From Candidatus Moraniibacteriota bacterium (lineage in GTDB: Bacteria; Patescibacteriota; Minisyncoccia; Moranbacterales; UBA1568): DNA of 64,000 bases. The stretch covers positions 23,527-87,526 of the forward strand of contig JBPOHW010000004.1 of NCBI GenBank assembly GCA_052035095.1, in the 5' to 3' direction. Below are positions 1-55,339 of the stretch, in pieces. A program made the position numbers and the translations under genes. How positions within the stretch are numbered: the first letter of the stretch is position 1; every line of letters starts with the position of its first letter. The notes beneath the pieces were generated by a model. That model was not told where the DNA came from, searched no databases, and was given only the letters and a program-made list of their open reading frames with translations.

Positions 1-1894
1 TTATTTTGCGATTCCGATAAGCGTTCTCGTTTCGGCGTTTGCTTCGTTTCTTTTTATTCCCTCGGCGCTTCCGTCTCTCGCCAATCCCAAGCCGTCAAAG
101 GCGTTTCCGGTCGAATTTTTTTCCGCGGCGATTCTCGTGACGATATCGACCGCTCTCTTTACCACGGTAGACGTGCTTTTGGCGAAGCACTTTATGTTCG
201 AGCGGAATGCCGGGGAATACGCGCTTCTGTCCTTGGTCGGCAAGGTGATTTTCTTTCTCGGCATTATGCCGAATATGTTCATGGTGACCTTTGTCGGACG
301 AAACCGAGGATTGGGAAAGGGAACGAAGAGCGTGTTTCGAATTATTTACTCGATTTCGGCGATTATAGTCACGGGAAGCGTGCTCGTGTTCGGATTTTTC
401 GGAGAGACGTTTGCCACATTGCTGTTCGGCGAAAAAATTCTCCAAATCGCATCTTTCCTTCCGATGTATACCGCGGCGATCGCTTTCTTCACACTCTCGA
501 CCATTATTGTGACGTATCATCTCGCGCGCAAACGGTATGTGTTCGTCTTTGCGGCGCTTTGTATGTCGCTTGCGGAAGCGGTGGGTATCTATCGGCTTCA
601 TTGGTCGCTCGACGGTGTCGTGTGGGTAGTCTTCCTCTCGAGTTTTTTTGGGTGGGTGCTTCTCGAATTCTTGCATTTTTCGGAACCGTCTTTTCAGTTC
701 TTCGGTCGGGCGTATCGGGATTTCCTCGGCGCCTTTCGGGGGCGTTCTCCGGAAGGAAAATTATCTTCAATCGGCAAGCGCGTACTCATTTTTAACTGGC
801 GCGATACGCGACACGCCTATAGCGGCGGCGCGGAAGTGTATGTCGAGGAAATCGCGAAGCGGTGGGTATCGGAAGGGCATACGGTTACGTTGTTCTGCGG
901 CAATGACGGGAAGTCTCCTCGGCACGAGACGCGAGACGGTATCCGCATTGTGCGTCGAGGCGGGTTTTACCTGGTCTACGCATGGGCGTTCGTGTATTAT
1001 TTCACTCGGTTTCGCGGGAAGTACGATGTGATTCTCGATTGCGAAAACGGCATCCCGTTTTTTACGCCATTCTATGTCAAGGAACCGGTCGTTTGCCTGT
1101 TGCATCACGTGCATCAAGACGTGTTCTTCCGATTTTTGCCGAAGCCCTTGGCGATGTTCGCGAGCTTTCTCGAGAAAACGCTGATGCCCTTGGTGTACGC
1201 GCGGGTTCCGTTCGTGACGGTGTCGCAGTCGAGTCGGAAAGATATGGAAGCGCTCGGTATCGGGAAAGCGGGCATTCGTATCGTCCACCCCGGAGTTCAT
1301 CTCGATGAGTTTGTTCCGTCCGAGCGGAAAACCGATCGACCGACTATTCTGTATCTCGGGAGGTTAAAAGCATACAAGTCGATCGATGTGTTACTTCGCG
1401 CGTTTCGATCAGTCATCGCCGAGCGACCGGAGGCTGAACTCATTATTGCCGGAGACGGCGATGAAGAATCCGCGTTGAAACGCTTGGCGTTTGAGGAGCT
1501 CCGCCTTGGGAGCGAGCGTGTTCGGTTTGTCGGTCACGTGTCGGAAGAAAAGAAGAAAGCGCTTCTTCAGGATGCATGGATGCTGATCAATCCGTCGATG
1601 ATGGAGGGGTGGGGCATTGTCGCGATCGAGGCGAACGCGTGCGGGACGCCGGTTGTCGCTTCCGATGTGCCGGGATTGCGCGATTCGGTAAAGAATCCGC
1701 ACTCCGGTTTTCTCGTTCCCTATGGCGACGCGGACGCGTTTGCCGAGAAAATGCTGCTTCTCATTCGCGATCGCGAGCTCCGGCTCGGTATGAATCGCGG
1801 CGCGCGCGAATGGGCGGAGCGGTTTGATTGGAATGTGTCGAGTAAATTGATGTTTGAGGCGATCTCTGTTTCAAATGATGAACGAGTGATATGA
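1..1894 (+). CDS. Fusion protein (5' partial at window edge): polytopic membrane domain (MOP/flippase-like) fused to a C-terminal GT4-family glycosyltransferase
   Basis: The frame is open from position 2 with no stop, so the N-terminus lies upstream of the window. The N-terminal ~190 aa are hydrophobic multi-TM. The C-terminal half carries the GT4/GT1 signature (EGWGIVAIEANACGTPVVASDVPGLRDSV, E-x7-E-like). It overlaps the next gene by 4 nt (ATGA). Confidence 0.7.
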   Translation, partial: YFAIPISVLVSAFASFLFIPSALPSLANPKPSKAFPVEFFSAAILVTISTALFTTVDVLLAKHFMFERNAGEYALLSLVGKVIFFLGIMPNMFMVTFVGRNRGLGKGTKSVFRIIYSISAIIVTGSVLVFGFFGETFATLLFGEKILQIASFLPMYTAAIAFFTLSTIIVTYHLARKRYVFVFAALCMSLAEAVGIYRLHWSLDGVVWVVFLSSFFGWVLLEFLHFSEPSFQFFGRAYRDFLGAFRGRSPEGKLSSIGKRVLIFNWRDTRHAYSGGAEVYVEEIAKRWVSEGHTVTLFCGNDGKSPRHETRDGIRIVRRGGFYLVYAWAFVYYFTRFRGKYDVILDCENGIPFFTPFYVKEPVVCLLHHVHQDVFFRFLPKPLAMFASFLEKTLMPLVYARVPFVTVSQSSRKDMEALGIGKAGIRIVHPGVHLDEFVPSERKTDRPTILYLGRLKAYKSIDVLLRAFRSVIAERPEAELIIAGDGDEESALKRLAFEELRLGSERVRFVGHVSEEKKKALLQDAWMLINPSMMEGWGIVAIEANACGTPVVASDVPGLRDSVKNPHSGFLVPYGDADAFAEKMLLLIRDRELRLGMNRGAREWAERFDWNVSSKLMFEAISVSNDERVI

Positions 1895-2793
1895 AACCAT
1901 TTACCGTTATCGTGGGCGTACCGGCATACAACGAGGAAGCGAATATCGCTTTCTTGCTTGAAGATATCCTGAGACAACGGTGTGAGAGTTTTGTCTTGAA
2001 AGAAATCGTGATCGTGTCGGATGGAAGCACGGATGAAACGTCGGATATCGCGAAGCGATATGAGTTTCGCGCGGTTTCGGTTCGAGGTGACGGAAAGCGA
2101 AAAGGAAAGGCGACAAGACTGAATGAAATTTTTGATGCCGCCCGGGGTCGCGCGGACGCGGTGGTACTCTTCGATGCCGATATCGCGCTTGTCGGAGACG
2201 AGGTGCTCGAGAAAATGGTCGGCGCGGTTCGTTCCGGCGCGGACCTGGTATCTTCGGAACTTTTGGCACTTCCGCCGAAGACGATGACCGGTCGGGCGAT
2301 TTTTGCGAGTCATGAATTGAAGCGACGGATGTTTGCCGAGTGGAGGCGGGGAGAGAATATCTATGCGTGCCATGGCGCGGCCCGCGCGTTTTCAAGTCGC
2401 CTTTTCCCCATCCTTCGGTTCAAAGAAAGTGTCGGCGAGGATGCGTATTCGTATCTTTTTGCCAAACAGCGAGGGTTTCGATATGCTCGCGTGTCGACCG
2501 CGGCGGTTCGCATTCGCGTGCCGGAAACGCTGCGGGATCACGAGAAACAGAGCCGGAGATTTACGGATTCGCAAGCGCTTTTTTTTCGCGAATTCGGACG
2601 AATTGCGGTTTCGGAAGAATACCGGTATCCGAAGTCATTGTTGGTGAGGTATTTCTCGAAATTTTTTCTAATACACCCCTTTGCACTCTCGTGGTATGTG
2701 GGTATTATGTTATATCTCCGCTTTTTCTCTCGGTTTCGCGAACAACAAGGAACATGGTCACCCGCATCGAGCTCCAAGGTTCTCCACTCATAA
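1891..2793 (+). CDS. GT2-family glycosyltransferase
   Basis: N-terminal GT-A fold motifs (VIVGVPAYNEEANIAFLLEDIL; IVIVSDGSTDETSDIA; DAD acceptor motif). ATG overlaps the upstream stop (ATGA), indicating translational coupling. Confidence 0.75.
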   Translation: MKPFTVIVGVPAYNEEANIAFLLEDILRQRCESFVLKEIVIVSDGSTDETSDIAKRYEFRAVSVRGDGKRKGKATRLNEIFDAARGRADAVVLFDADIALVGDEVLEKMVGAVRSGADLVSSELLALPPKTMTGRAIFASHELKRRMFAEWRRGENIYACHGAARAFSSRLFPILRFKESVGEDAYSYLFAKQRGFRYARVSTAAVRIRVPETLRDHEKQSRRFTDSQALFFREFGRIAVSEEYRYPKSLLVRYFSKFFLIHPFALSWYVGIMLYLRFFSRFREQQGTWSPASSSKVLHS

Positions 2794-2806
2794 TAATCGC
2801 GTCGAT

Positions 2807-3619
2807 ATGTTTTCTTTCGGATCTTCCATGTCACTTCGTGTTCGTCGAATTGTATATACATTTCTTCGGATTTCGGATGTTTTTTTCCCGCGCCGTCGAG
2901 ACAAGCTGGTGATTTTTTCCTACCACAGCATTGCAAAAGACGCGTGGCGTTTCAGTATCGATCCGGAACTGTTTCGAGTCCAGATCGAGGCGCTTCTCTC
3001 GACATACCGACCCATCTCTCTTTCGGAGGCGGTTGAGTTTCTTTACGGAAAACGTGTGATTGAACAACCTTCGTTTGTTTTGACTTTTGATGATGGCTAT
3101 CGAGATATTCTCGACGTGAAGGAATTTCTCGCGGAAAAGAAGATTCGTCCGACGTGTTTCATCCTTTCCGATTCTCCGCGCGCGGATCTCGCGGAATTGG
3201 GGACGCGACGAGAATTTCTGAATGTCGCCGATATCCGAGAGTTGATGTCCTCGGGATGGGAAGTCGGGTGTCATAGCGCGACGCACGGAGATTTTTGGGC
3301 GATGACGCCGGAGAGGATTTTCGAGGAGACGGCAAACGCCAAGAAAAAACTCGAAGCCGAACTCGGCGTTCCCGTCCGATATTTCGCCTATCCGCGGGGA
3401 CGGTATACGGACGCGGCGAAGCGCATCATACGGGACGCTGGGTATGATTTGGCGCTCTCTATGGATGACGGATTTCTTTCGACCAAGACCGATCTTCTCG
3501 CCGTGCCGCGTATCGGCGTCGATCGGACGCACACATTGAAAGAATTCGGCGCGATTCACACGGACGCGGCGATACTCTTTCGAAGACTGGTAAAAAAAAT
3601 TATTGGAAAATTTTTATGA
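2807..3619 (+). CDS. Polysaccharide deacetylase (NodB/CE4 family)
   Basis: NodB homology motifs TFDDGYRDI and HSATHGDF. The ORF track gives 2681, but that start overlaps the GT2 gene by 113 nt; the first ATG after the GT2 stop region (2807) is more likely. Confidence 0.7.
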   Translation: MFSFGSSMSLRVRRIVYTFLRISDVFFPRRRDKLVIFSYHSIAKDAWRFSIDPELFRVQIEALLSTYRPISLSEAVEFLYGKRVIEQPSFVLTFDDGYRDILDVKEFLAEKKIRPTCFILSDSPRADLAELGTRREFLNVADIRELMSSGWEVGCHSATHGDFWAMTPERIFEETANAKKKLEAELGVPVRYFAYPRGRYTDAAKRIIRDAGYDLALSMDDGFLSTKTDLLAVPRIGVDRTHTLKEFGAIHTDAAILFRRLVKKIIGKFL

Positions 3620-4350
3620 ATATGCGAAATACTCTTCTCAAAGTTCTCGGACCCGTTCGCGCTCGACTGATGCGAATGCTTCGACCGAAGTCCGGGTATT
3701 TTCTCTTTCCCGTTCCCATGCGAAAACTTGAGCCTATCAGTTCAAAATTCGGGTACGATCGGGGGACGCCTGTTGATCGGTACTATATCGAACGTTTTCT
3801 CGACGGAGTCAAACTCGATATTCGCGGGAAGTGTCTTGAGGTGACGGACAGCGCTTATACAAAACGATTCGGCGAAGATCGGGTGACAAAGAGCGAAGTG
3901 GTTGACATTGATCGAAATAACACAAACGCGACGATCCTTGCCGATCTCCGCGATATGCGAAAGGAAATACCCGATGATACGTTTGATACGATTATCGCGA
4001 CGCACACATTTGGCGTGATTGATGATTTTGAAGCGGCGATACGCGAATGTGTGAGAATTTTGAAGCCGGGTGGCACACTGATTGCGACCGTATCATCCCT
4101 CGGTGTCGCCGCTGAACCCGAGCTTGCGTATTGGAGATTCACGAAGGCGTCGGCGCGATATGTGTTTGGGAAATACTTTGATCGAGAGACGCTCCGCATT
4201 TCGACATTTGGCAATGTGCTTTCGGGTCAAGCGTTTTGGGTGGGACTTGCCGCCGAGGAACTTTCCACAGAAGAGCTTCGAAAAAATGATGATCGGTATC
4301 CGATCGTTATCGGTATTTCCGCAAAGAAAAGTCTTCACGATAATTCATAA
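3616..4350 (+). CDS. Class I SAM-dependent methyltransferase
   Basis: Methyltransf_11-like motifs (LEVTDSAY..; ILKPGGTLIAT post-I motif). ATG overlaps the upstream stop. Confidence 0.6.
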   Translation: MNMRNTLLKVLGPVRARLMRMLRPKSGYFLFPVPMRKLEPISSKFGYDRGTPVDRYYIERFLDGVKLDIRGKCLEVTDSAYTKRFGEDRVTKSEVVDIDRNNTNATILADLRDMRKEIPDDTFDTIIATHTFGVIDDFEAAIRECVRILKPGGTLIATVSSLGVAAEPELAYWRFTKASARYVFGKYFDRETLRISTFGNVLSGQAFWVGLAAEELSTEELRKNDDRYPIVIGISAKKSLHDNS

Positions 4351-24599: not shown

Positions 24600-26390
24600 A
24601 TGGACATTCGAAATATCGCCATTATCGCGCATGTGGACCACGGGAAGACCACACTGACTGATGCTTTGATGCGCCAAACCGGCATGATCGAGGAAGGGGT
24701 CAGTATGGACTCGAACGCTCTCGAACAGGAGCGCGGCATTACGATCTATTCCAAGAACGCGGCGCTTTTTTACAAGGATACCAAGATTAATATCGTGGAC
24801 ACACCCGGGCACGCGGATTTCGGGAGCGAGGTGGAGCGAGTGCTTCGCTCGATTGATTCAGTGCTCCTCGTGGTCGATGCGCAGGAGGGTCCGATGCCGC
24901 AGACGCGGTTTGTGCTTAAGAAATCACTGGAGTTGGGGCTCAAACCGATTGTGGTTATCAACAAAATAGACAAACCGGCGGCGCGCGTCGAATGGGTGCT
25001 TGATCAAATATTCGAGCTCTTCCTTGATCTGGGCGCGACCGATGAACAGCTTGAATTCAAAACTGTGTACGCGATCGCGAAGCAGGGTATCGCGAAGCGT
25101 CGTATGGAGGATGAGTCGAGCGACCTCTCACCGCTTCTTGATATGGTGCTCGAGGCGGTCCCCGCGGCGGGGCAGGATACCGAGTCGCTCTTTCGCGCGC
25201 AACCGTTCAACTTGGGCTATGATAATTTTCTCGGGCGTCTCGCCGTGTGTCGCGTGTATGAAGGAAGCGCCAAAGTGGGCGACACCGTTTTTGCCAAGAA
25301 GCCTTCGGGAGAAATTTCTTCGGGGCGCATTACCAAGATCTTCACCTTTCGCGGGTTGACGCGCGTCGAAACGAATGAGGTGTCCGCCGGTGATATCGCG
25401 CTCATTGCCGGTATCGCGGACGTGTACATTGGCGATACGATCGCGCACACCAAGGACGTGAAGAATTTGCCGTCGATCGCGATCGATGAACCGACGATCA
25501 CGCTTCACTTTCTCGTAAATGATTCACCCTTTGCGGGACGCGAAGGGAAATTTGTGACGCGCGAGCAATTGCGCGAACGCCTTCGTCGCGAACTGGAAAT
25601 AAACGTGGGACTCAAAATCGATTTTGATTCGGGGGAAAACTTCCTTGTCTCGGGACGCGGCGAACTACATATCGCGATTCTTTTGGAAACGATGCGTCGC
25701 GAAGGCTATGAGTGCCAGGTGTCGCAACCGAAGGTGATTATGAAAGAAGTGGACGGCGTGAGGTGCGAGCCCTTCGAAGAAGTGATCGTCGATGTGCCGA
25801 CGGAATATACGGGCGCGGTCATTGAGCGAATGGGGCGACGAAAAGGCATTATGACCAATATGAAACAGGGGCAGGGCAATGACTCGCGACTGCTCTTTGA
25901 AATTCCGACACGCGGACTCTTGGGCTATCGCGGGCAGTTCACCGTCGACACTAAGGGCGAGGGAATTCTCTCGTCGCGCTTCCTTGAGTTTCGTCCGTAT
26001 GTCGGTGATATCGAACACCGAAGCGTCGGCTCGATGATCTCGATGGCGACGGGGAAGGCGCTCGGCTTCTCGCTCTGGAATTTGCAGGATCGCGGGACGC
26101 TCTATATCGGCGCCGCGACCGATGTCTATGAGGGACAGGTCATCGGCAATGCCTCCAAAGGCGACGATATGGCGGTGAATCCTACCAAGGGGAAACAGCT
26201 CACCAATATGCGCGCCTCGGGTTCCGACGACGCGATTCAACTCACACCGCCGTGGACGCTCTCGATTGAACGCGGTCTCGAGGTAATGGCGGAAGACGAA
26301 TACCTCGAAATCACGCCAGAGAGCGTCCGCCTCAGGAAGCAATACCTTACCGAGAACGAACGGGTGAAAATGGGGAGAAAGGGGAAGTAA
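24600..26390 (+). CDS. typA: Translational GTPase TypA/BipA
   Basis: G1 [11 protein letters not shown]3 DTPGHADF, and EF-G-like domains. The conserved start [18 protein letters not shown] is at 24600. Confidence 0.9.
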
Positions 26391-51880: not shown

Positions 51881-52588
51881 CTATCGCCGTATTTCTATGT
51901 ATTCAACAAAAGGGAGGAGGCGGGTGCGGATGTTTTCGAGATCGAGGGTTTTGCCGCGGGTTTTTTCGACAAGGGAGGAGTCGAGGATTTTGATATCGCG
52001 AAATTCTTGGAGTGCGAAACTTCGCGCGTCTTTGAGCCACTTTCCAATTTCGTCAAAATCACGCTCCTCGTGAATGCCTGGGACGACGGTGGTGCGGAAT
52101 TCGTACGGGGCGCCACTCTCCATAATGATCCGGACGCTTTCTTGGAAGTTTTCAATCGGGATATCGGCATTTCCAGAGGCAAGCGAATATTTCTCGGGCG
52201 TATGCTTGATGTCCATCGCCCAGAAGTCCACGAGTCCGGTTTTGGCGAGTTTTCTGACAATGTCAGGGAAGGCGCCGTTGGTATCGAGCTTCACGAGGAA
52301 GCCCATATTTTTTATCTTCCGAATGAAATCGAGAAGGTCGCCGTGAAGTGTCGGCTCGCCGCCCGTGATACAGACGCCGTCGAGTTTTCCTTTGCGGCGA
52401 ACGAGGAAGGTGAGAAATTCTTCCGTTTTGTCGCCGCCCGTTTGCTTCAAATATCCTTTGCTCGGCTCAATGAGCTCGGGATTGTGACAAAACGGACATC
52501 GAAGTACGCACCCCAATGTAAACACGGTCGCCGCGAGTTTCCCGGGATAATCCAAAAGGGTAAGTGGCTGGTATCCCGCAATATACAT
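51881..52588 (-). CDS. nrdG: Anaerobic ribonucleoside-triphosphate reductase activating protein (radical SAM)
   Basis: CxxxCxxC radical-SAM cluster motif (GCVLRCPFCHNPEL). The conserved start MYIAGYQPLTLLDYPGK is at 52588; the track's longer 315-aa ORF begins far upstream without homology. Confidence 0.8.
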   Translation of the reverse strand: MYIAGYQPLTLLDYPGKLAATVFTLGCVLRCPFCHNPELIEPSKGYLKQTGGDKTEEFLTFLVRRKGKLDGVCITGGEPTLHGDLLDFIRKIKNMGFLVKLDTNGAFPDIVRKLAKTGLVDFWAMDIKHTPEKYSLASGNADIPIENFQESVRIIMESGAPYEFRTTVVPGIHEERDFDEIGKWLKDARSFALQEFRDIKILDSSLVEKTRGKTLDLENIRTRLLPFVEYIEIRR

Positions 52589-52595
52589 ACTGGTT

Positions 52596-52847
52596 TTATG
52601 CTCCTTGCGGCGCGTATTCGAGGCGGTCGCAGAATTCTTGGCGTTTGCCTTTGTTCCACTGCTCGACCGGGCGGATATAACCAACGACGCGCGAATAGAC
52701 TTCCGTTTTTCGGAAATCGGCGAGCTCCGGTTTTGCCTCATAGCACGCGCGGCACTTCGCTTTCGTTTCCCCGTCAACCTCATAGGGCATATACTCCGCC
52801 CCTTTCTCGAGCGTCTTCCCGCAATCATGACAGGTTATCGTTTGCAT
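52596..52847 (-). CDS. Stand-alone zinc-ribbon + glycyl-radical domain protein (NrdD C-terminal domain encoded as a separate ORF)
   Basis: CHDCG-x22-CRAC zinc ribbon followed by the glycyl-radical motif EVYSRVVGYIRPVEQWNKGKRQEF (RxxGY). In frame with nrdD but separated from it by two TAA codons. Confidence 0.6.
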   Translation of the reverse strand: MQTITCHDCGKTLEKGAEYMPYEVDGETKAKCRACYEAKPELADFRKTEVYSRVVGYIRPVEQWNKGKRQEFCDRLEYAPQGA

Positions 52848-52871
52848 ACCGTTTTCTTTAACAAATTATTT

Positions 52872-54950
52872 TTACACTTTTTGATATTCTTTTGCGGATG
52901 ATGTGACGACGCATTGCGGACAGGTTTTGTGTTCGCCGGGGAGGTAGCCATGAGTGGGGCAGATGCTGAAGGTGGGAGTGAGGGTGAAGTAGGGGAGGTG
53001 GTATTTCTCGGCGATTTTCTTTACCAGCATACGGGCGGAAGCGGGATCGGTGATGCGTTCTCCAAGGAAACCGTGGAGGACGGTGCCGCCGGTGTATTGT
53101 GTTTGCAGATTGTCCTGGAGATCGAGGGCTTCAAAGATGTCGTCGGTGAAGCCGACGGGGAGATGGGAGGAATTGGTGTAGTAGGGATCGGCATGTTTGG
53201 TTTTGACATCGGACTCGTTTGCGACCGCGATATCGGGGTATTTTTTGGTATCGAGGAGCGCGAGGCGATAGGCGGTGCCTTCGGCGGGGGTGGCTTCCAA
53301 ATTGTAGAGGTTATTGGTTTTTTCTTGGTAGCTACTGATACGCTCGCGCATATGAGTGAGCATTTTTGCGGCGAAGGCTTGCCCTTTTTCGGTGGTGATG
53401 TCGGTTTTCAGTAAGTTCTTGATTGCTTCATTGGTGCCGACCAGACCGATTGTGGAGAAATGATTTTTCCAGTACTGGTGAAAACGTTTTTTGATATTTC
53501 CGAGATAAAATTTCGTATAGGGATAGAGGCCTTTTTCGGTGAGAGCTTCCACGATTTTTCGTTTCGTCTCGAGGCTTTCCTGGGCGATATCCATCAGGCG
53601 GTCGAGGCGGGTGAAGAAATCCTTTTCGTTTTTGGCGACATAGCCGATGCGCGGCAGGTTAACGGTGACGACACCAATCGAGCCGGTCAGGGGATTGGCG
53701 CCGAAGAGTCCGCCACCGCGCTTCCGGAGCTCTCTATTATCCAGACGTAACCTACAACACATACTTCGTGCGTCGTCGGGGCTCATATCGGAGTTGACGA
53801 AGTTGGCGAAGTAGGGGATGCCGTACTTGGCGGTCATCTCCCAAAGAGGGAGATACGCGGGATTCTCCCAGTCGAAGTTCTTGGTGATATTGTAGGTTGG
53901 GATGGGGAAAGTGAAGATGCGTCCCGAGGCATCGCCCTCGCACATCACTTCCGCGAAGGCGCGATTGATCATCGCCATTTCCGGCGCGAAATCGCCATAG
54001 GTTTCCGGTTGCGGCTCGCCGCCGATGATCGCATGCTCCTTGGCGAGAATTTTGGGCGGGATAATATCCATCGTAATATTGGAGAACGGCGTTTGGAAAC
54101 CGACCCTGGTCGAGACATTCATATTGAAGACGAAGGACTGGATTTCCTGCTTCACTTGCGCGTAGGTGAGTCTGTCTTTCCTTACAAAGGGCGCGAGGAG
54201 CGTGTCGAAATTGGAGAAGGCTTGGGCGCCGGCGACTTCGCCTTGGAGGGTGTAGATGAAGTTGACCATTTGTCCGAGGATTGAGCCCAAGTGTTTGGCG
54301 GGTTTGCAGGAAACCTTGCCGGGGACGCCGGTAAAACCGCGCCGCAAGAGATCCTCCAGATCCCACCCGCAACAATAGGCGGAGATGAGTTGGAGATCGT
54401 GAATGTGAAGATCGCCGGATTCATGCGCATCGCGGACTTCTTTGGAATAGATTTTGTTCATCCAGTACTTGGTACTGATTGCCGAGGAAACGTAGTTGTT
54501 GAGTCCTTGGAGCGAGTACGCCATATTGGCGTTTTCTTTGACGAGCCAGTCGAGGTTGCCGATGTACTTGTCGACCAAATGCACGGCTTTGACGAGGGAC
54601 TCCTCCGTTTCTCGGACTTCGCGGTGTTGCTCGCGGTAGAGGATATAGGCCTTCGCGGTGTCGTGATAGCCCTCCGACATAAGGACGGTTTCGACAAGGT
54701 CTTGGATCTCCTCGATTTTTGGGACAAAGTTTCCCAGTTTTTGTTTCGCGTATTGGCGAGCTTTTCGTTCGAGAATGGCAATCACTTTTTTACCGACGCG
54801 CGTCGCATCCTTGTCGCTCCCCGTGGCGGTTGCCGCAAAGGCCTTTTCGACGGCGCCGATTATTTTATACGGATTGAACGAGGTGGTTCGCCCGCTTCGC
54901 TTCCGCACCGATTCGATCGTCACCGCCGTTCTTTTCTTCGTGTTTTTCAT
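52872..54950 (-). CDS. nrdD: Anaerobic ribonucleoside-triphosphate reductase (class III) large protein, lacking the glycyl-radical motif
   Basis: N-terminal ATP-cone, class III RNR barrel, and a C-terminal CPTH...CPQC metal site. No RxxGY motif before the stop. Confidence 0.85.
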   Translation of the reverse strand: MKNTKKRTAVTIESVRKRSGRTTSFNPYKIIGAVEKAFAATATGSDKDATRVGKKVIAILERKARQYAKQKLGNFVPKIEEIQDLVETVLMSEGYHDTAKAYILYREQHREVRETEESLVKAVHLVDKYIGNLDWLVKENANMAYSLQGLNNYVSSAISTKYWMNKIYSKEVRDAHESGDLHIHDLQLISAYCCGWDLEDLLRRGFTGVPGKVSCKPAKHLGSILGQMVNFIYTLQGEVAGAQAFSNFDTLLAPFVRKDRLTYAQVKQEIQSFVFNMNVSTRVGFQTPFSNITMDIIPPKILAKEHAIIGGEPQPETYGDFAPEMAMINRAFAEVMCEGDASGRIFTFPIPTYNITKNFDWENPAYLPLWEMTAKYGIPYFANFVNSDMSPDDARSMCCRLRLDNRELRKRGGGLFGANPLTGSIGVVTVNLPRIGYVAKNEKDFFTRLDRLMDIAQESLETKRKIVEALTEKGLYPYTKFYLGNIKKRFHQYWKNHFSTIGLVGTNEAIKNLLKTDITTEKGQAFAAKMLTHMRERISSYQEKTNNLYNLEATPAEGTAYRLALLDTKKYPDIAVANESDVKTKHADPYYTNSSHLPVGFTDDIFEALDLQDNLQTQYTGGTVLHGFLGERITDPASARMLVKKIAEKYHLPYFTLTPTFSICPTHGYLPGEHKTCPQCVVTSSAKEYQKV

Positions 54951-54971
54951 AGCTGTTTGTTCGATAAAATC

Positions 54972-55090
54972 AGGACGTACGCGTTTGGCGCAGTTCGAGG
55001 AAAACGCGAGGAACGGAGTAAGCTGTATACGCCATACAGCGTCAAGTACCGGAGCATTTGACGAAGAAATGCGCCAAACGCGTACGTCCT
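54972..55090. promoter_or_regulatory. Long inverted repeat (21-bp perfect arms, 77-nt interior with a nested hairpin) in the nrdD upstream/leader region
   Basis: aggacgtacgcgtttggcgca ... tgcgccaaacgcgtacgtcct, with an internal gctgtatacgccatacagc hairpin. Lies 22–140 nt upstream of the nrdD start, between divergent genes. Confidence 0.5.
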
Positions 55091-55339
55091 AAAAACTTGA
55101 TTTTTGGGGAAAAGAAAAACCGTGGATATAGTGCTCCCCCACGGAGTGCGCGTTTCCGTTTCGCGCCTTCTCATTATCTTCCAAAGTTTCGAACTCGTAA
55201 AGTTTCCTTTGGTGGAGGGAAAAGTGGTATACTATTTTCCAGTATCGAGTAGTCAGTAGCGAGTAGTTGGTAAAGAGTGCCAATTGAAAGTTATCACGCT
55301 CTCTATCATCTCCAGTCTAAATTTTTTATTCCTTTTCTT

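What the first reader, a model, noticed from the sequence alone, without database searches (positions are those of the whole stretch)
51881..54950. Class III ribonucleotide reductase with the glycyl-radical domain encoded as a separate 83-aa ORF, in-frame and separated by tandem TAA codons
The 692-aa NrdD ORF ends …CPTHGYLPGEHKTCPQCVVTSSAKEYQKV with no RxxGY glycyl-radical motif. Exactly in frame, after TAA-AAA-TAA and five sense codons, an ORF (52596..52847) encodes a complete CxxC-x22-CxxC zinc ribbon plus EVYSRVVGYIRPVEQWNKGKRQEF. This is the canonical NrdD C-terminal glycyl-radical loop. Either the radical domain is supplied in trans, as with the GrcA/YfiD 'spare part' for PFL, or this is a recent nonsense split or sequencing artefact. 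The activase nrdG follows directly.
Basis: seen in the sequence. Interest (0 to 1): 0.55.

Follow-up and report, generated by a model that had tools for sequence, protein, structure and literature searches.

The report
Class III RNR with detached radical subunit
In this Moranbacteria-like genome the anaerobic ribonucleotide reductase has lost its own radical-bearing tail and very probably borrows it from a separate, conserved 83-residue protein, which belongs to a large undescribed family that looks like the first "spare-part" radical protein for this enzyme class.

Summary
On the minus strand there is a 692-aa NrdD without the RVxGY glycyl-radical motif, then TAA-AAA-TAA and six (not five) sense codons. 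An 83-aa ORF follows with a CxxC-x22-CxxC ribbon and SRVVG56Y, then nrdG.

It is not an artefact, a recent nonsense split or read-through. Four relatives carry the same truncation (…KEYQK/RV*) with spacers of 25, 168 and 1414 nt and either TAA or TGA stops. All three genes are under strong purifying selection (dN/dS 0.04-0.15, dS 0.4 to above 2).

The small ORF is not the cut-off end of NrdD. It is a separate paralogue with its own zinc ribbon. In many Patescibacteria it sits between a full-length NrdD, which keeps its own radical tail, and nrdG. At least seven NrdD lineages have independently lost the cis tail. Four truncated NrdDs chosen without reference to the small gene all have it downstream.

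In other CPR lineages the small gene lies in Fur – small gene – superoxide dismutase or hemerythrin loci. It also occurs on viral contigs.

Best reading: a GrcA-like, NrdG-activated autonomous glycyl-radical protein for class III RNR, obligatory in this lineage. A 2026 review says spare parts are known only for formate-lyases. The evidence is comparative only. The complex could not be modelled, and no biochemistry exists.

The parts
52872..54950 (-). nrdD, class III RNR catalytic subunit, 692 aa. It is naturally truncated just before the glycyl-radical motif and ends ...KEYQKV.
   Evidence: It has an ATP-cone and the PF13597 barrel. Its tail aligns to ...TEVYSRV|VGY of full-length relatives and stops before VGY.
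54618..54911 (-). ATP-cone domain of NrdD (aa 14-111).
   Evidence: PF03477, E 4.6e-20.
53751..53762 (-). Finger-loop motif M397-C398-C399-R400, the site of the thiyl-radical cysteine.
   Evidence: Invariant in all 120 closest NrdDs, truncated and full-length alike. It aligns to the MGCR loop of PDB 8p23. The motif class is described in PMC9669993.
52911..52961 (-). NrdD's own zinc site, C664-x2-H667...C677-x2-C680, retained despite the truncation.
   Evidence: Invariant columns; sequence.
52848..52874 (-). nrdD stop codon plus a 24-nt spacer: TAA AAA TAA TTT GTT AAA GAA AAC GGT.
   Evidence: Homologous spacers in relatives are 25, 168 and 1414 nt. No terminator-like site is predicted here.
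52596..52847 (-). Stand-alone glycyl-radical protein, 83 aa: a zinc ribbon plus an NrdD-type Gly loop.
   Evidence: PF13597 positions 510-562. At least 120 clusters of 64-113 aa homologues were found. All 150 best 50%-identity representatives are 42-159 aa.
52743..52832 (-). Zinc ribbon of the small protein, C6xxC9-x22-C32xxC35.
   Evidence: All four Cys are invariant in alignment A2. AF2 pLDDT is about 75 for residues 1-40.
52677..52691 (-). Glycyl-radical motif R53-V-V-G56-Y57. G56 is the predicted radical site.
   Evidence: Invariant R53, V55, G56 and Y57. It is identical to the cis motif of full-length relatives.
51881..52588 (-). nrdG, the radical-SAM activase, 235 aa. The C27x3C31x2C34 cluster motif lies at 52487-52510.
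   Evidence: TIGR02495, 200 bits. PF04055. dN/dS is 0.07-0.14.
55173..55201 (-). Promoter-like site (TTTACG-17-GATAAT) upstream of nrdD, conserved in relatives.
   Evidence: conservation shown.

Best explanation
The 83-aa ORF encodes an autonomous, NrdD-derived glycyl-radical protein made of a zinc ribbon and a Gly loop.

Inferred mechanism:
- NrdG abstracts the H atom from G56 of the free small protein.
- The activated Gly loop then inserts into the NrdD barrel, opposite the C398/C399 finger loop. That is where NrdD's own C-terminal tail sits in ordinary class III RNRs.
- This completes the active site.
- After oxygen damage, which cleaves the chain at the glycyl radical, only the 83-residue subunit has to be replaced.

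In most relatives this protein coexists with a full-length NrdD. There it is best read as a GrcA/YfiD-like spare part for class III RNR. In the window's lineage NrdD has lost its cis tail. It ends about where the known cleavage at the radical glycine would leave it. The small protein is therefore the only radical carrier, and the enzyme is an obligate NrdD + small-subunit + NrdG system.

Shown here: gene content, conservation, selection, repeated cis-tail loss, co-variation of the two tails, and the oxidative-stress neighbourhood.

Inferred only: activation by NrdG, docking, catalysis and repair.
For: 1. Real and old.
- Four relatives (L006, L007, L009, L010) have NrdD ending ...KEYQK[VA] or ...KEYQRV, plus an 83-84 aa small gene and nrdG.
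- Their spacers are 25 nt (out of frame), 168 nt (TGA stop) and 1414 nt (two inserted genes).

2. Purifying selection within that clade.
- dN/dS is 0.04-0.08 for NrdD, 0.12-0.15 for the small gene and 0.07-0.14 for nrdG, at dS 0.4 to above 2.
- C193, C194, M397-C398-C399-R400 and the zinc ligands are invariant in all 120 closest NrdDs.
- Core column entropy is similar in truncated and full-length NrdDs (0.57 against 0.44 bits), with no fixed differences.

3. Independent paralogue.
- Many loci have nrdR – full-length NrdD (own ...EVYSRVVGYIRPV... tail) – small GRD gene – nrdG. These include cultured Minisyncoccus archaeiphilus.
- Of 59 non-redundant loci, 37 have a full-length and 22 a truncated NrdD.

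4. Repeated loss of the cis tail.
- Truncated NrdDs fall in at least seven separate places on a neighbour-joining tree, with different residual tails.
- 41 of the 120 closest NrdD clusters lack RVxGY.
- Four truncated NrdDs, picked only for lacking the motif, all have a small PF13597 gene downstream.

5. Same partners as the cis tail.
- Within 41 genomes, the small protein's 28-residue Gly segment is on average 92% identical to that genome's own NrdD tail.
- It shares lineage-specific residues (WNGGK, WNAGK, WNEGK, SRIVGY, GYLRP).
- 28% of the identical-residue codons differ synonymously. This points to selection, with occasional gene conversion.

6. Oxygen link. In 12 other CPR loci the small gene directly follows a Fur-family gene. 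It is followed by Fe/Mn SOD in six loci. A hemerythrin gene follows it in two (L062, and L063 where no Fur gene was detected).

7. No terminator-like site lies between the three window genes.

8. The field expects such proteins but has none outside PFL. PMC8683613 says so. PMC13450708 states that formate-lyases are the only glycyl-radical enzyme (GRE) class with spare parts.
Against: - No biochemical, expression or read-level data are available.
- The complex could not be modelled.
- AF2 of the small protein alone is weak: pLDDT 63, with the Gly loop below 50. Its fold search gave only generic zinc-ribbon hits.
- NrdD keeps its own zinc ribbon, so the holoenzyme would have to accommodate two ribbons.
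- Most loci were fetched through the small gene, which is an ascertainment bias. relieve this only in part.
- Many small homologues have no NrdD within 4 kb (Fur/SOD loci, Desulfobacterales, 59 viral contigs). The family may therefore have roles I have not seen.
- The neighbour-joining tree is crude, so the count of independent losses is approximate.
- AF2 of the truncated NrdD has low confidence at the finger loop (396-422) and at 188-195. This is ambiguous, because double-Cys NrdDs are known to model poorly there (PMC9669993).
Confidence: 0.74

Rival explanations
1. Recent nonsense mutation, pseudogene or assembly error: the class III RNR of this genome is broken, and the small ORF is just the orphaned 3' end of nrdD.
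For: The two ORFs are in frame and separated only by TAA-AAA-TAA and six codons. One relative with a complete genome, L011 (CP064994.1), has nrdD broken into two ORFs.
Against: - The small ORF has its own zinc ribbon, while NrdD keeps its own as well. This is not a simple cut.
- The same truncation occurs in at least four other assemblies, with different spacers, frames and stop codons.
- dN/dS is 0.04-0.15 at saturating dS.
- Catalytic residues are invariant.
- The small gene also exists beside intact NrdDs.
Confidence: 0.03
2. Programmed stop-codon read-through, frameshifting or recoding fuses the two ORFs into one 780-aa NrdD with two ribbons.
For: The arrangement in the window is in frame.
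Against: - Two TAA codons would have to be bypassed.
- TAA is the commonest ordinary stop among the window's long ORFs (17 of 38).
- L006 has a 25-nt out-of-frame spacer. L007 has 168 nt with further stops and a TGA. L009 has 1414 nt with two genes. L171 has a 196-aa gene in between.
- In full-length relatives the spacers are 34, 46 and 49 nt.
- No natural fusion was found among 389 retrieved proteins.
Confidence: 0.02
3. The small protein is not a catalytic radical donor for NrdD. It could be a regulator or decoy, for example a competitive NrdG substrate that tunes activation, a radical store, or a cofactor for some other enzyme. The truncated NrdD would then have a non-canonical or no reductase function.
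For: - Many homologues lie far from any NrdD: Fur/SOD loci, Desulfobacterales next to an S1-domain gene, and viral contigs.
- Some of those loci encode a class I/II RNR nearby (L052, L060).
- AF2 gives no confident fold for the Gly loop alone.
Against: - Truncated NrdDs keep every catalytic residue and stay under strong constraint together with nrdG. That is hard to explain for an enzyme with no radical source.
- The small protein's Gly segment tracks the cis tail of its own genome's NrdD residue by residue. This is expected if both fill the same socket.
- Loss of the cis tail was seen only where the small gene is present.
Confidence: 0.15
4. A genes-in-pieces RNR created by a mobile element (homing endonuclease, intron or intein) inserting into nrdD. 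Known examples are phage Aeh1 nrdA and T4 nrdD (recalled from my own knowledge, not checked here), and the split P. aeruginosa NrdJa/b, which PMC9669993 cites.
For: L009 and L171 have extra genes between nrdD and the small gene. Split RNRs are a known phenomenon.
Against: - The window spacer is 24 nt with no mobile element.
- The ribbon duplication and the coexistence with intact NrdD show duplication followed by loss, not partition.
- No intein-sized extra domain is present at either junction.
Confidence: 0.04

Closest known systems
GrcA/YfiD of E. coli and Y06I of phage T4, the autonomous glycyl-radical cofactors that act as spare parts for pyruvate formate-lyase
   Same: - It is a small stand-alone protein carrying the glycyl-radical loop of a large glycyl-radical enzyme.
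- It coexists with the full-length enzyme (here, in relatives).
- It is presumably activated by the enzyme's own activase.
- It is linked to oxygen stress.
- Viral copies exist.
- The window's truncated NrdD resembles the oxygen-cleaved enzyme that GrcA rescues.
   Different: - It derives from NrdD (PF13597), not from PFL (PF01228 is not matched).
- It has an N-terminal zinc ribbon, where YfiD has a disordered N-terminal half (PMC8683613).
- It is encoded inside the nrdD-nrdG operon.
- In several lineages the enzyme has lost its own radical domain altogether. I know of no GrcA/PFL case of that; I did not search for one.
- No experimental data exist.
Canonical class III RNR, NrdD-NrdG (E. coli, phage T4, T. 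maritima, P. copri; PDB 1h79, 4coi, 8p23)
   Same: - ATP-cone, barrel, finger-loop cysteine(s) and a Cys/His zinc ribbon are all present.
- The RVxGY Gly loop sequence is present.
- The activase is of the NrdG2 type.
- nrdR lies upstream in most relatives.
   Different: - The Gly loop is on a separate polypeptide.
- NrdD ends one residue before VGY.
- A second zinc ribbon sits on the small subunit.
Split RNRs: P. aeruginosa class II NrdJa/NrdJb and phage Aeh1 NrdA-a/NrdA-b
   Same: An RNR catalytic function distributed over two adjacent genes.
   Different: - Those are simple partitions of one ORF with no duplicated segment.
- They have no relatives that keep both the intact gene and the extra piece.
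- Here the origin is duplication of the C-terminal domain, followed by repeated loss of the cis copy.
Class I RNR alpha/beta architecture
   Same: In logic only: the radical is generated and held on a separate small subunit and delivered to the catalytic barrel.
   Different: There is no homology. Class I beta is a ferritin-like metalloprotein that uses long-range radical transfer. Here the radical loop would insert physically into the barrel.

Membership tests
Class III RNR catalytic subunit NrdD (PF13597 / TIGR02487 / PRK08270) | NRDD barrel domain above the curated cut-off | tested here: met
   PF13597 scores 618 bits (cut-off 26), TIGR02487 532 bits (cut-off 326) and PRK08270 1042 bits (cut-off 548).
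Class III RNR catalytic subunit NrdD (PF13597 / TIGR02487 / PRK08270) | Finger-loop radical cysteine (MGCR or MCCR motif) | tested here: met
   M397-C398-C399-R400 is invariant and aligns to the MGCR loop of 8p23.
Class III RNR catalytic subunit NrdD (PF13597 / TIGR02487 / PRK08270) | C-terminal zinc ribbon | tested here: met
   C664, H667, C677 and C680 are invariant.
Class III RNR catalytic subunit NrdD (PF13597 / TIGR02487 / PRK08270) | Glycyl-radical motif RVxGY on the same polypeptide | tested here: not met
   The large ORF ends ...KEYQKV* and covers model positions 1-534 of 562 only. The motif is on the 83-aa ORF instead.
GrcA/YfiD autonomous glycyl-radical cofactor (PF01228 Gly_radical; IPR011140) | Small stand-alone protein containing a glycyl-radical loop | tested here: met
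   83 aa with SRVVG56Y. Stand-alone homologues of 42-159 aa are widespread.
GrcA/YfiD autonomous glycyl-radical cofactor (PF01228 Gly_radical; IPR011140) | Sequence membership in the PFL-type Gly_radical family | tested here: not met
   The Pfam and NCBIfam scans hit only NrdD models. There is no PF01228 or GrcA hit at E <= 0.01.
GrcA/YfiD autonomous glycyl-radical cofactor (PF01228 Gly_radical; IPR011140) | Coexists with a full-length cognate enzyme whose radical segment it duplicates | tested here: inconclusive
   Met in 37 of 59 related loci, with mean 92% identity to the cis tail. Not met in the window, where the enzyme lacks the segment.
GrcA/YfiD autonomous glycyl-radical cofactor (PF01228 Gly_radical; IPR011140) | Radical installed by the enzyme's activase, and activity restored to the oxygen-cleaved enzyme | not testable with these tools
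   Only context is available: nrdG lies immediately downstream, and some relatives have Fur/SOD/hemerythrin neighbours.
NrdG class III RNR activase (TIGR02495 NrdG2) | Radical-SAM CxxxCxxC motif and an equivalog score above the cut-off | tested here: met
   C27x3C31x2C34. TIGR02495 scores 200 bits against a cut-off of 131. PF04055 E is 1e-18.
Split ('genes in pieces') RNR | Two ORFs that together equal one ancestral ORF without duplicated segments | tested here: not met
   The zinc ribbon is present in both ORFs. The PF13597 model ranges overlap, 1-534 and 510-562. Intact NrdD plus the small gene occur together in relatives.
Translational read-through / recoding | Conserved in-frame arrangement with a single leaky stop | tested here: not met
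   There are two TAA codons. Relatives are out of frame or far apart. TAA, TGA and TAG are all used as stops in the window.

The most novel reading that the evidence does not exclude
A large, unnamed family of NrdD-derived autonomous glycyl-radical proteins serves as exchangeable radical subunits for class III ribonucleotide reductase. It occurs in CPR/Patescibacteria, in Desulfobacterales and on archaeal and bacterial virus contigs.

This would be the first spare-part system outside the formate-lyases. In at least seven lineages, including this one, evolution has gone a step further: the enzyme's own radical domain was discarded. The result is an obligately heteromeric class III RNR whose oxygen-labile part is a disposable 83-residue protein. 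Viruses may carry the same part to keep host or viral NrdD running.
Probability: 0.6. Interest if true: 0.85.

Novelty: new variant of a known kind. Interest (0 to 1): 0.74.

Why it matters
All glycyl-radical enzymes are destroyed by oxygen through chain cleavage at the radical glycine. The only known repair is GrcA/YfiD for pyruvate formate-lyase. The field has asked explicitly whether other glycyl-radical enzymes have spare parts (PMC8683613; PMC13450708 still says none are known).

This locus and its relatives give a concrete and abundant candidate for class III RNR, the enzyme that makes DNA precursors in anaerobes. They also offer a natural experiment: lineages with the cis tail plus the spare part, and lineages with the spare part only. 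That makes the hypothesis directly testable with three small recombinant proteins.

The idea could also help explain how ultra-small CPR bacteria tolerate fluctuating oxygen while relying on an oxygen-sensitive RNR. That is conjecture; I did not check which other RNRs these genomes carry.

There is a practical consequence for annotation. Pipelines label both the truncated enzyme and the 80-110 aa proteins as "anaerobic ribonucleoside-triphosphate reductase". Surveys that filter RNRs by length (for example 400-1100 aa in PMC9531940) discard the small ones.

Tried and rejected
- **Modelling the complex.** No natural fusion exists among the 389 proteins retrieved.
- **AF2 of the small protein alone.** pLDDT was 63 and the Gly loop was disordered. 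Foldseek against the PDB gave only generic zinc-ribbon matches with E above 0.1, which is uninformative.
- **AF2 of the truncated NrdD.** pLDDT was 75.6. The barrel was confident, but the finger loop, residues 188-195 and the tail scored below 50. This fits an empty socket but is not diagnostic.
- **Rfam scan of the window.** No hits.
- **Terminator scan.** Nothing between the three genes.
- **Consensus fold of the conserved nrdD leader.** No covariation with four sequences.
- **Literature.** Seven searches found no description of a stand-alone NrdD radical domain. The library lacks most subscription journals, so prior description cannot be excluded.
- **GenBank phage search.** A viral-type small GRD query gave only two records.
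- **Rejected readings.** Trans-splicing or a split intein (no intein-sized sequence at either junction); TAA recoding; an intron in nrdD (the spacer is 24 nt).


Full report
**1. What is in the window**

The minus strand carries three tightly packed genes.
- nrdD runs 54950..52872 and encodes 692 aa.
- A 24-nt spacer follows its stop codon. Stop plus spacer read TAA AAA TAA TTT GTT AAA GAA AAC GGT.
- An 83-aa ORF runs 52847..52596.
- Seven nucleotides later comes nrdG, 52588..51881, 235 aa.

The large protein has an ATP-cone and the NRDD barrel. It covers only positions 1-534 of the 562-position Pfam model. The small protein covers positions 510-562 (E 1.4e-11). nrdG is a clear NrdG2 equivalog.

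It misses one point: the large ORF keeps its own zinc site (C664xxH667...C677xxC680). The ribbon is therefore present in both proteins, which already argues against a simple cut.

**2. Not an artefact, not recent, not read-through**

The small protein has at least 120 clusters (90% identity) of stand-alone homologues, 64-113 aa long and 57-90% identical (one is 100% identical over 77% of the query). Source names point to Moranbacteria and Parcubacteria.

In the window's own clade NrdD is 686-692 aa (L006, L007, L009) and ends ...KEYQK[VA]/...KEYQRV (also L010).
- The spacer to the small gene is 25 nt and out of frame in L006.
- It is 168 nt with a TGA stop in L007.
- It is 1414 nt with two inserted genes in L009.

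Pairwise dN/dS within this clade is 0.04-0.08 for NrdD, 0.12-0.15 for the small gene and 0.07-0.14 for nrdG. Synonymous divergence runs from 0.4 to saturation.

TAA, TGA and TAG all serve as ordinary stops in the window. No terminator-like site separates the three genes.

**3. The twist: the small gene is an extra copy, and the window's NrdD lost its own tail**

In L001, L003 and L005 the locus is nrdR – NrdD – small gene – nrdG.
- NrdD there is 729-748 aa and ends ...CPKCVVEQKTEVYSRVVGYIRPVEQWNKGK..., which is a full radical tail.
- The small gene is 85-88 aa.
- The window's NrdD tail (...CPQCVVTSSAKEYQKV*) aligns to ...CPKCVVEQKTEVYSRV and stops just before VGY.

- Of the 80 best, 79 are short stand-alone ORFs, mostly flanked by nrdD and nrdG.
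- They span Moranbacteria, Komeili-, Staskawicz- and Nealsonbacteria, Paceibacterota, cultured Minisyncoccus archaeiphilus, Omnitrophota, a Pacearchaeota-labelled MAG and Desulfobacterales.
- Among 59 non-redundant loci with a near-complete NrdD, 37 keep the cis motif and 22 lack it.
- The residual tails are unrelated to one another: ...YLKVVMAD, ...EKYAKAG, ...VFLKVGEEELREK..., ...NKKINKFK, ...MAKARV and others.
- On a neighbour-joining tree of NrdD cores the truncated forms fall in at least seven separate places. One (L035) is nested among full-length sequences.

Independently, 41 of the 120 NrdD clusters closest to the window's protein lack RVxGY.

To reduce ascertainment bias I picked four of those only because they lack the motif: P0205, P0195, P0221 and P0138. 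All four have an 81-105 aa PF13597 gene downstream.

Truncated and full-length cores are about equally conserved, with no fixed differences. The βA cysteines, the MCCR finger loop and the zinc ligands are invariant in all 120.

**4. Evidence that the small protein uses the same socket and the same activase**

I compared the 28-residue Gly segment of the small protein with the cis tail of the NrdD in the same genome, for 41 genomes that have both.
- Mean amino-acid identity is 92%.
- Lineage-specific residues are shared: WNGGK, WNAGK, WNVGK, WNEGK, SRIVGY, GYLRP.
- Nucleotide identity averages 86% and ranges from 71% to 98%.
- 28% of codons with identical residues differ synonymously.

The match is therefore maintained by selection, with occasional gene conversion. 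That is expected if both segments must fit the same barrel and the same NrdG.

**5. Evidence for an oxygen-damage role in the wider family**

In twelve loci from other CPR lineages the small gene lies immediately downstream of a Fur-family (possibly PerR-like) gene. It is followed by Fe/Mn superoxide dismutase in six. Hemerythrin follows it in L062 and L063; in L063 no Fur gene was detected. Pfam confirms these assignments.

A profile search of 1.84 billion representatives found 3991 hits, 462 of them at E <= 1e-10.
- All 150 best representatives are 42-159 aa.
- 149 carry the R-x-x-G-Y/F motif and 114 carry a CxxC...CxxC ribbon.

On IMG/VR contigs, 59 of 80 loci have a stand-alone copy with no NrdD within 4 kb. 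The GenBank ANMV-1 archaeal virus encodes a 144-aa one, annotated only as "anaerobic ribonucleoside triphosphate reductase".

**6. Mechanism (inferred)**

NrdG generates the radical on G56 of the free small protein. Activation of any glycyl-radical enzyme needs the Gly loop to leave the barrel, so a free domain is an easy substrate. This is established knowledge for PFL and PFL-AE.

The loop then inserts next to C398/C399 of NrdD and starts thiyl-radical chemistry as in ordinary class III RNR. Oxygen cleaves glycyl-radical proteins at the glycine. With a detached subunit, only 83 residues are lost.

The window's NrdD ends about where such cleavage would leave a normal NrdD. It is, in effect, a genetically pre-cleaved enzyme that depends on the spare part.

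**7. Comparison with what is known**

The nearest analogue is GrcA/YfiD and T4 Y06I for pyruvate formate-lyase.
- By function the resemblance is close.
- By membership it fails: the protein matches NrdD models only, not PF01228, and it has a zinc ribbon.

It is not a genes-in-pieces RNR of the NrdJa/b kind (cited in PMC9669993) or the Aeh1 NrdA kind (my recollection). The ribbon is duplicated, and intact NrdD coexists with the small gene in relatives.

Literature searches found no description.
- PMC8683613 states that only the two PFL spare parts are validated and that others may exist.
- The library is incomplete, so prior description elsewhere cannot be excluded.

**8. Limits**

Everything here is comparative.
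- The complex could not be modelled.
- AF2 of the small protein alone is weak and its fold search is uninformative.
- AF2 of the truncated NrdD gives a confident barrel, with low confidence at the finger loop, at residues 188-195 and at the tail. This is compatible with an unfilled socket but is not diagnostic.
- It is unknown whether genomes with Fur/SOD-type or viral copies have an NrdD at all, so the family may hold further functions.

**9. Verdict**

The trans-supply reading is supported and the split-or-artefact reading is refuted. The finding is best filed as a new variant of a known kind: an NrdD-type autonomous glycyl-radical protein that has become the sole radical carrier in this lineage. 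Interest is high for RNR and glycyl-radical enzymology, pending biochemistry.

Noticed in passing
window 54970-55092 (minus strand), 20 nt upstream of the nrdD start codon: A ~123-nt element is closed by a 23-bp perfect inverted repeat (AGGACGTACGCGTTTGGCGCAUU...). As RNA it folds at -63.7 kcal/mol with z = -7.9. It is absent from the same position in L006, L007 and L010, so it is a window-specific palindromic, MITE-like insertion in the nrdD leader.
   Followed up: partly
window 55095-55201 (minus strand) and the homologous regions of L006, L007 and L010: A promoter-like TTTACG-17-GATAAT is conserved. A conserved leader follows, with a GCGC hairpin and a CCGTGG...CCACGG stem before TTTTTCTTTT, which looks like an attenuator. 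There is no Rfam hit and no covariation with four sequences. nrdR is not adjacent in this clade, unlike in most relatives.
   Followed up: partly
alignment A2; loci L012-L043 and others; P0146, L027: Most small GRD proteins outside the window's clade end in a Cys pair (...ACC...CSSC...CGC), and so do some full-length NrdD tails. This recalls the C-terminal redox-shuttle cysteines of class I/II RNRs. The window's protein ends ...APQGA with no such pair.
   Followed up: no
L052, L053, L056, L058, L060, L062, L064, L066, L067, L069, L072, L085 (L063: hemerythrin only): These show a Fur-family gene, then the small NrdD-type GRD gene. Fe/Mn SOD follows in six of them, and hemerythrin follows in L062 and L063. 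No NrdD lies within 4 kb. L052 and L060 carry a class I/II RNR gene nearby.
   Followed up: partly
L090-L169 (IMG/VR); L170 = KP703175.1 ANMV-1 virus, 25525-25959: 59 of 80 viral-contig loci encode a stand-alone NrdD-type GRD ORF without a nearby NrdD. The ANMV-1 archaeal virus has a 144-aa one. Whether the IMG/VR contigs are true viruses was not checked.
   Followed up: partly
L074-L078 (Desulfobacterales MAGs), L099, L100, L119: A longer form of about 114-135 aa has an N-terminal extension and a larger ribbon insert (...SGGA[VL][FY]EPEPE...). In the three Desulfobacterales loci examined (L074, L075, L078) it sits next to a multi-S1-domain protein gene on the opposite strand. There are no RNR or oxidative-stress genes within 4 kb.
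   Followed up: no
L009 2794-3982; L171 5108-5698: Extra genes sit between the truncated nrdD and the small GRD gene: 155 aa (PF27709) plus 138 aa in L009, and 196 aa in L171. Their nature is unknown.
   Followed up: no
L011 (CP064994.1, complete Moraniibacteriota genome) 1512-3825: nrdD of this window-clade relative is broken into two ORFs (449 and 288 codons of open frame), while the small gene is intact. nrdG lies about 1.8 kb further on. This could be a sequencing frameshift or real decay.
   Followed up: no
L084 2-4114; L086 1-3876: The NrdD-containing open frames are 1291-1370 codons long, about twice the normal size. An intein or a fused upstream ORF may be present.
   Followed up: no
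L007 3833-4000: The 168-nt spacer between nrdD and the small gene contains a near-perfect long palindrome (...CTGTTTTTCAGAAAAAATTGTTTTT.../...AAAAACAATTTTTTCTGAAAAACAG...). It could be a hairpin or terminator that uncouples expression of the two genes.
   Followed up: no
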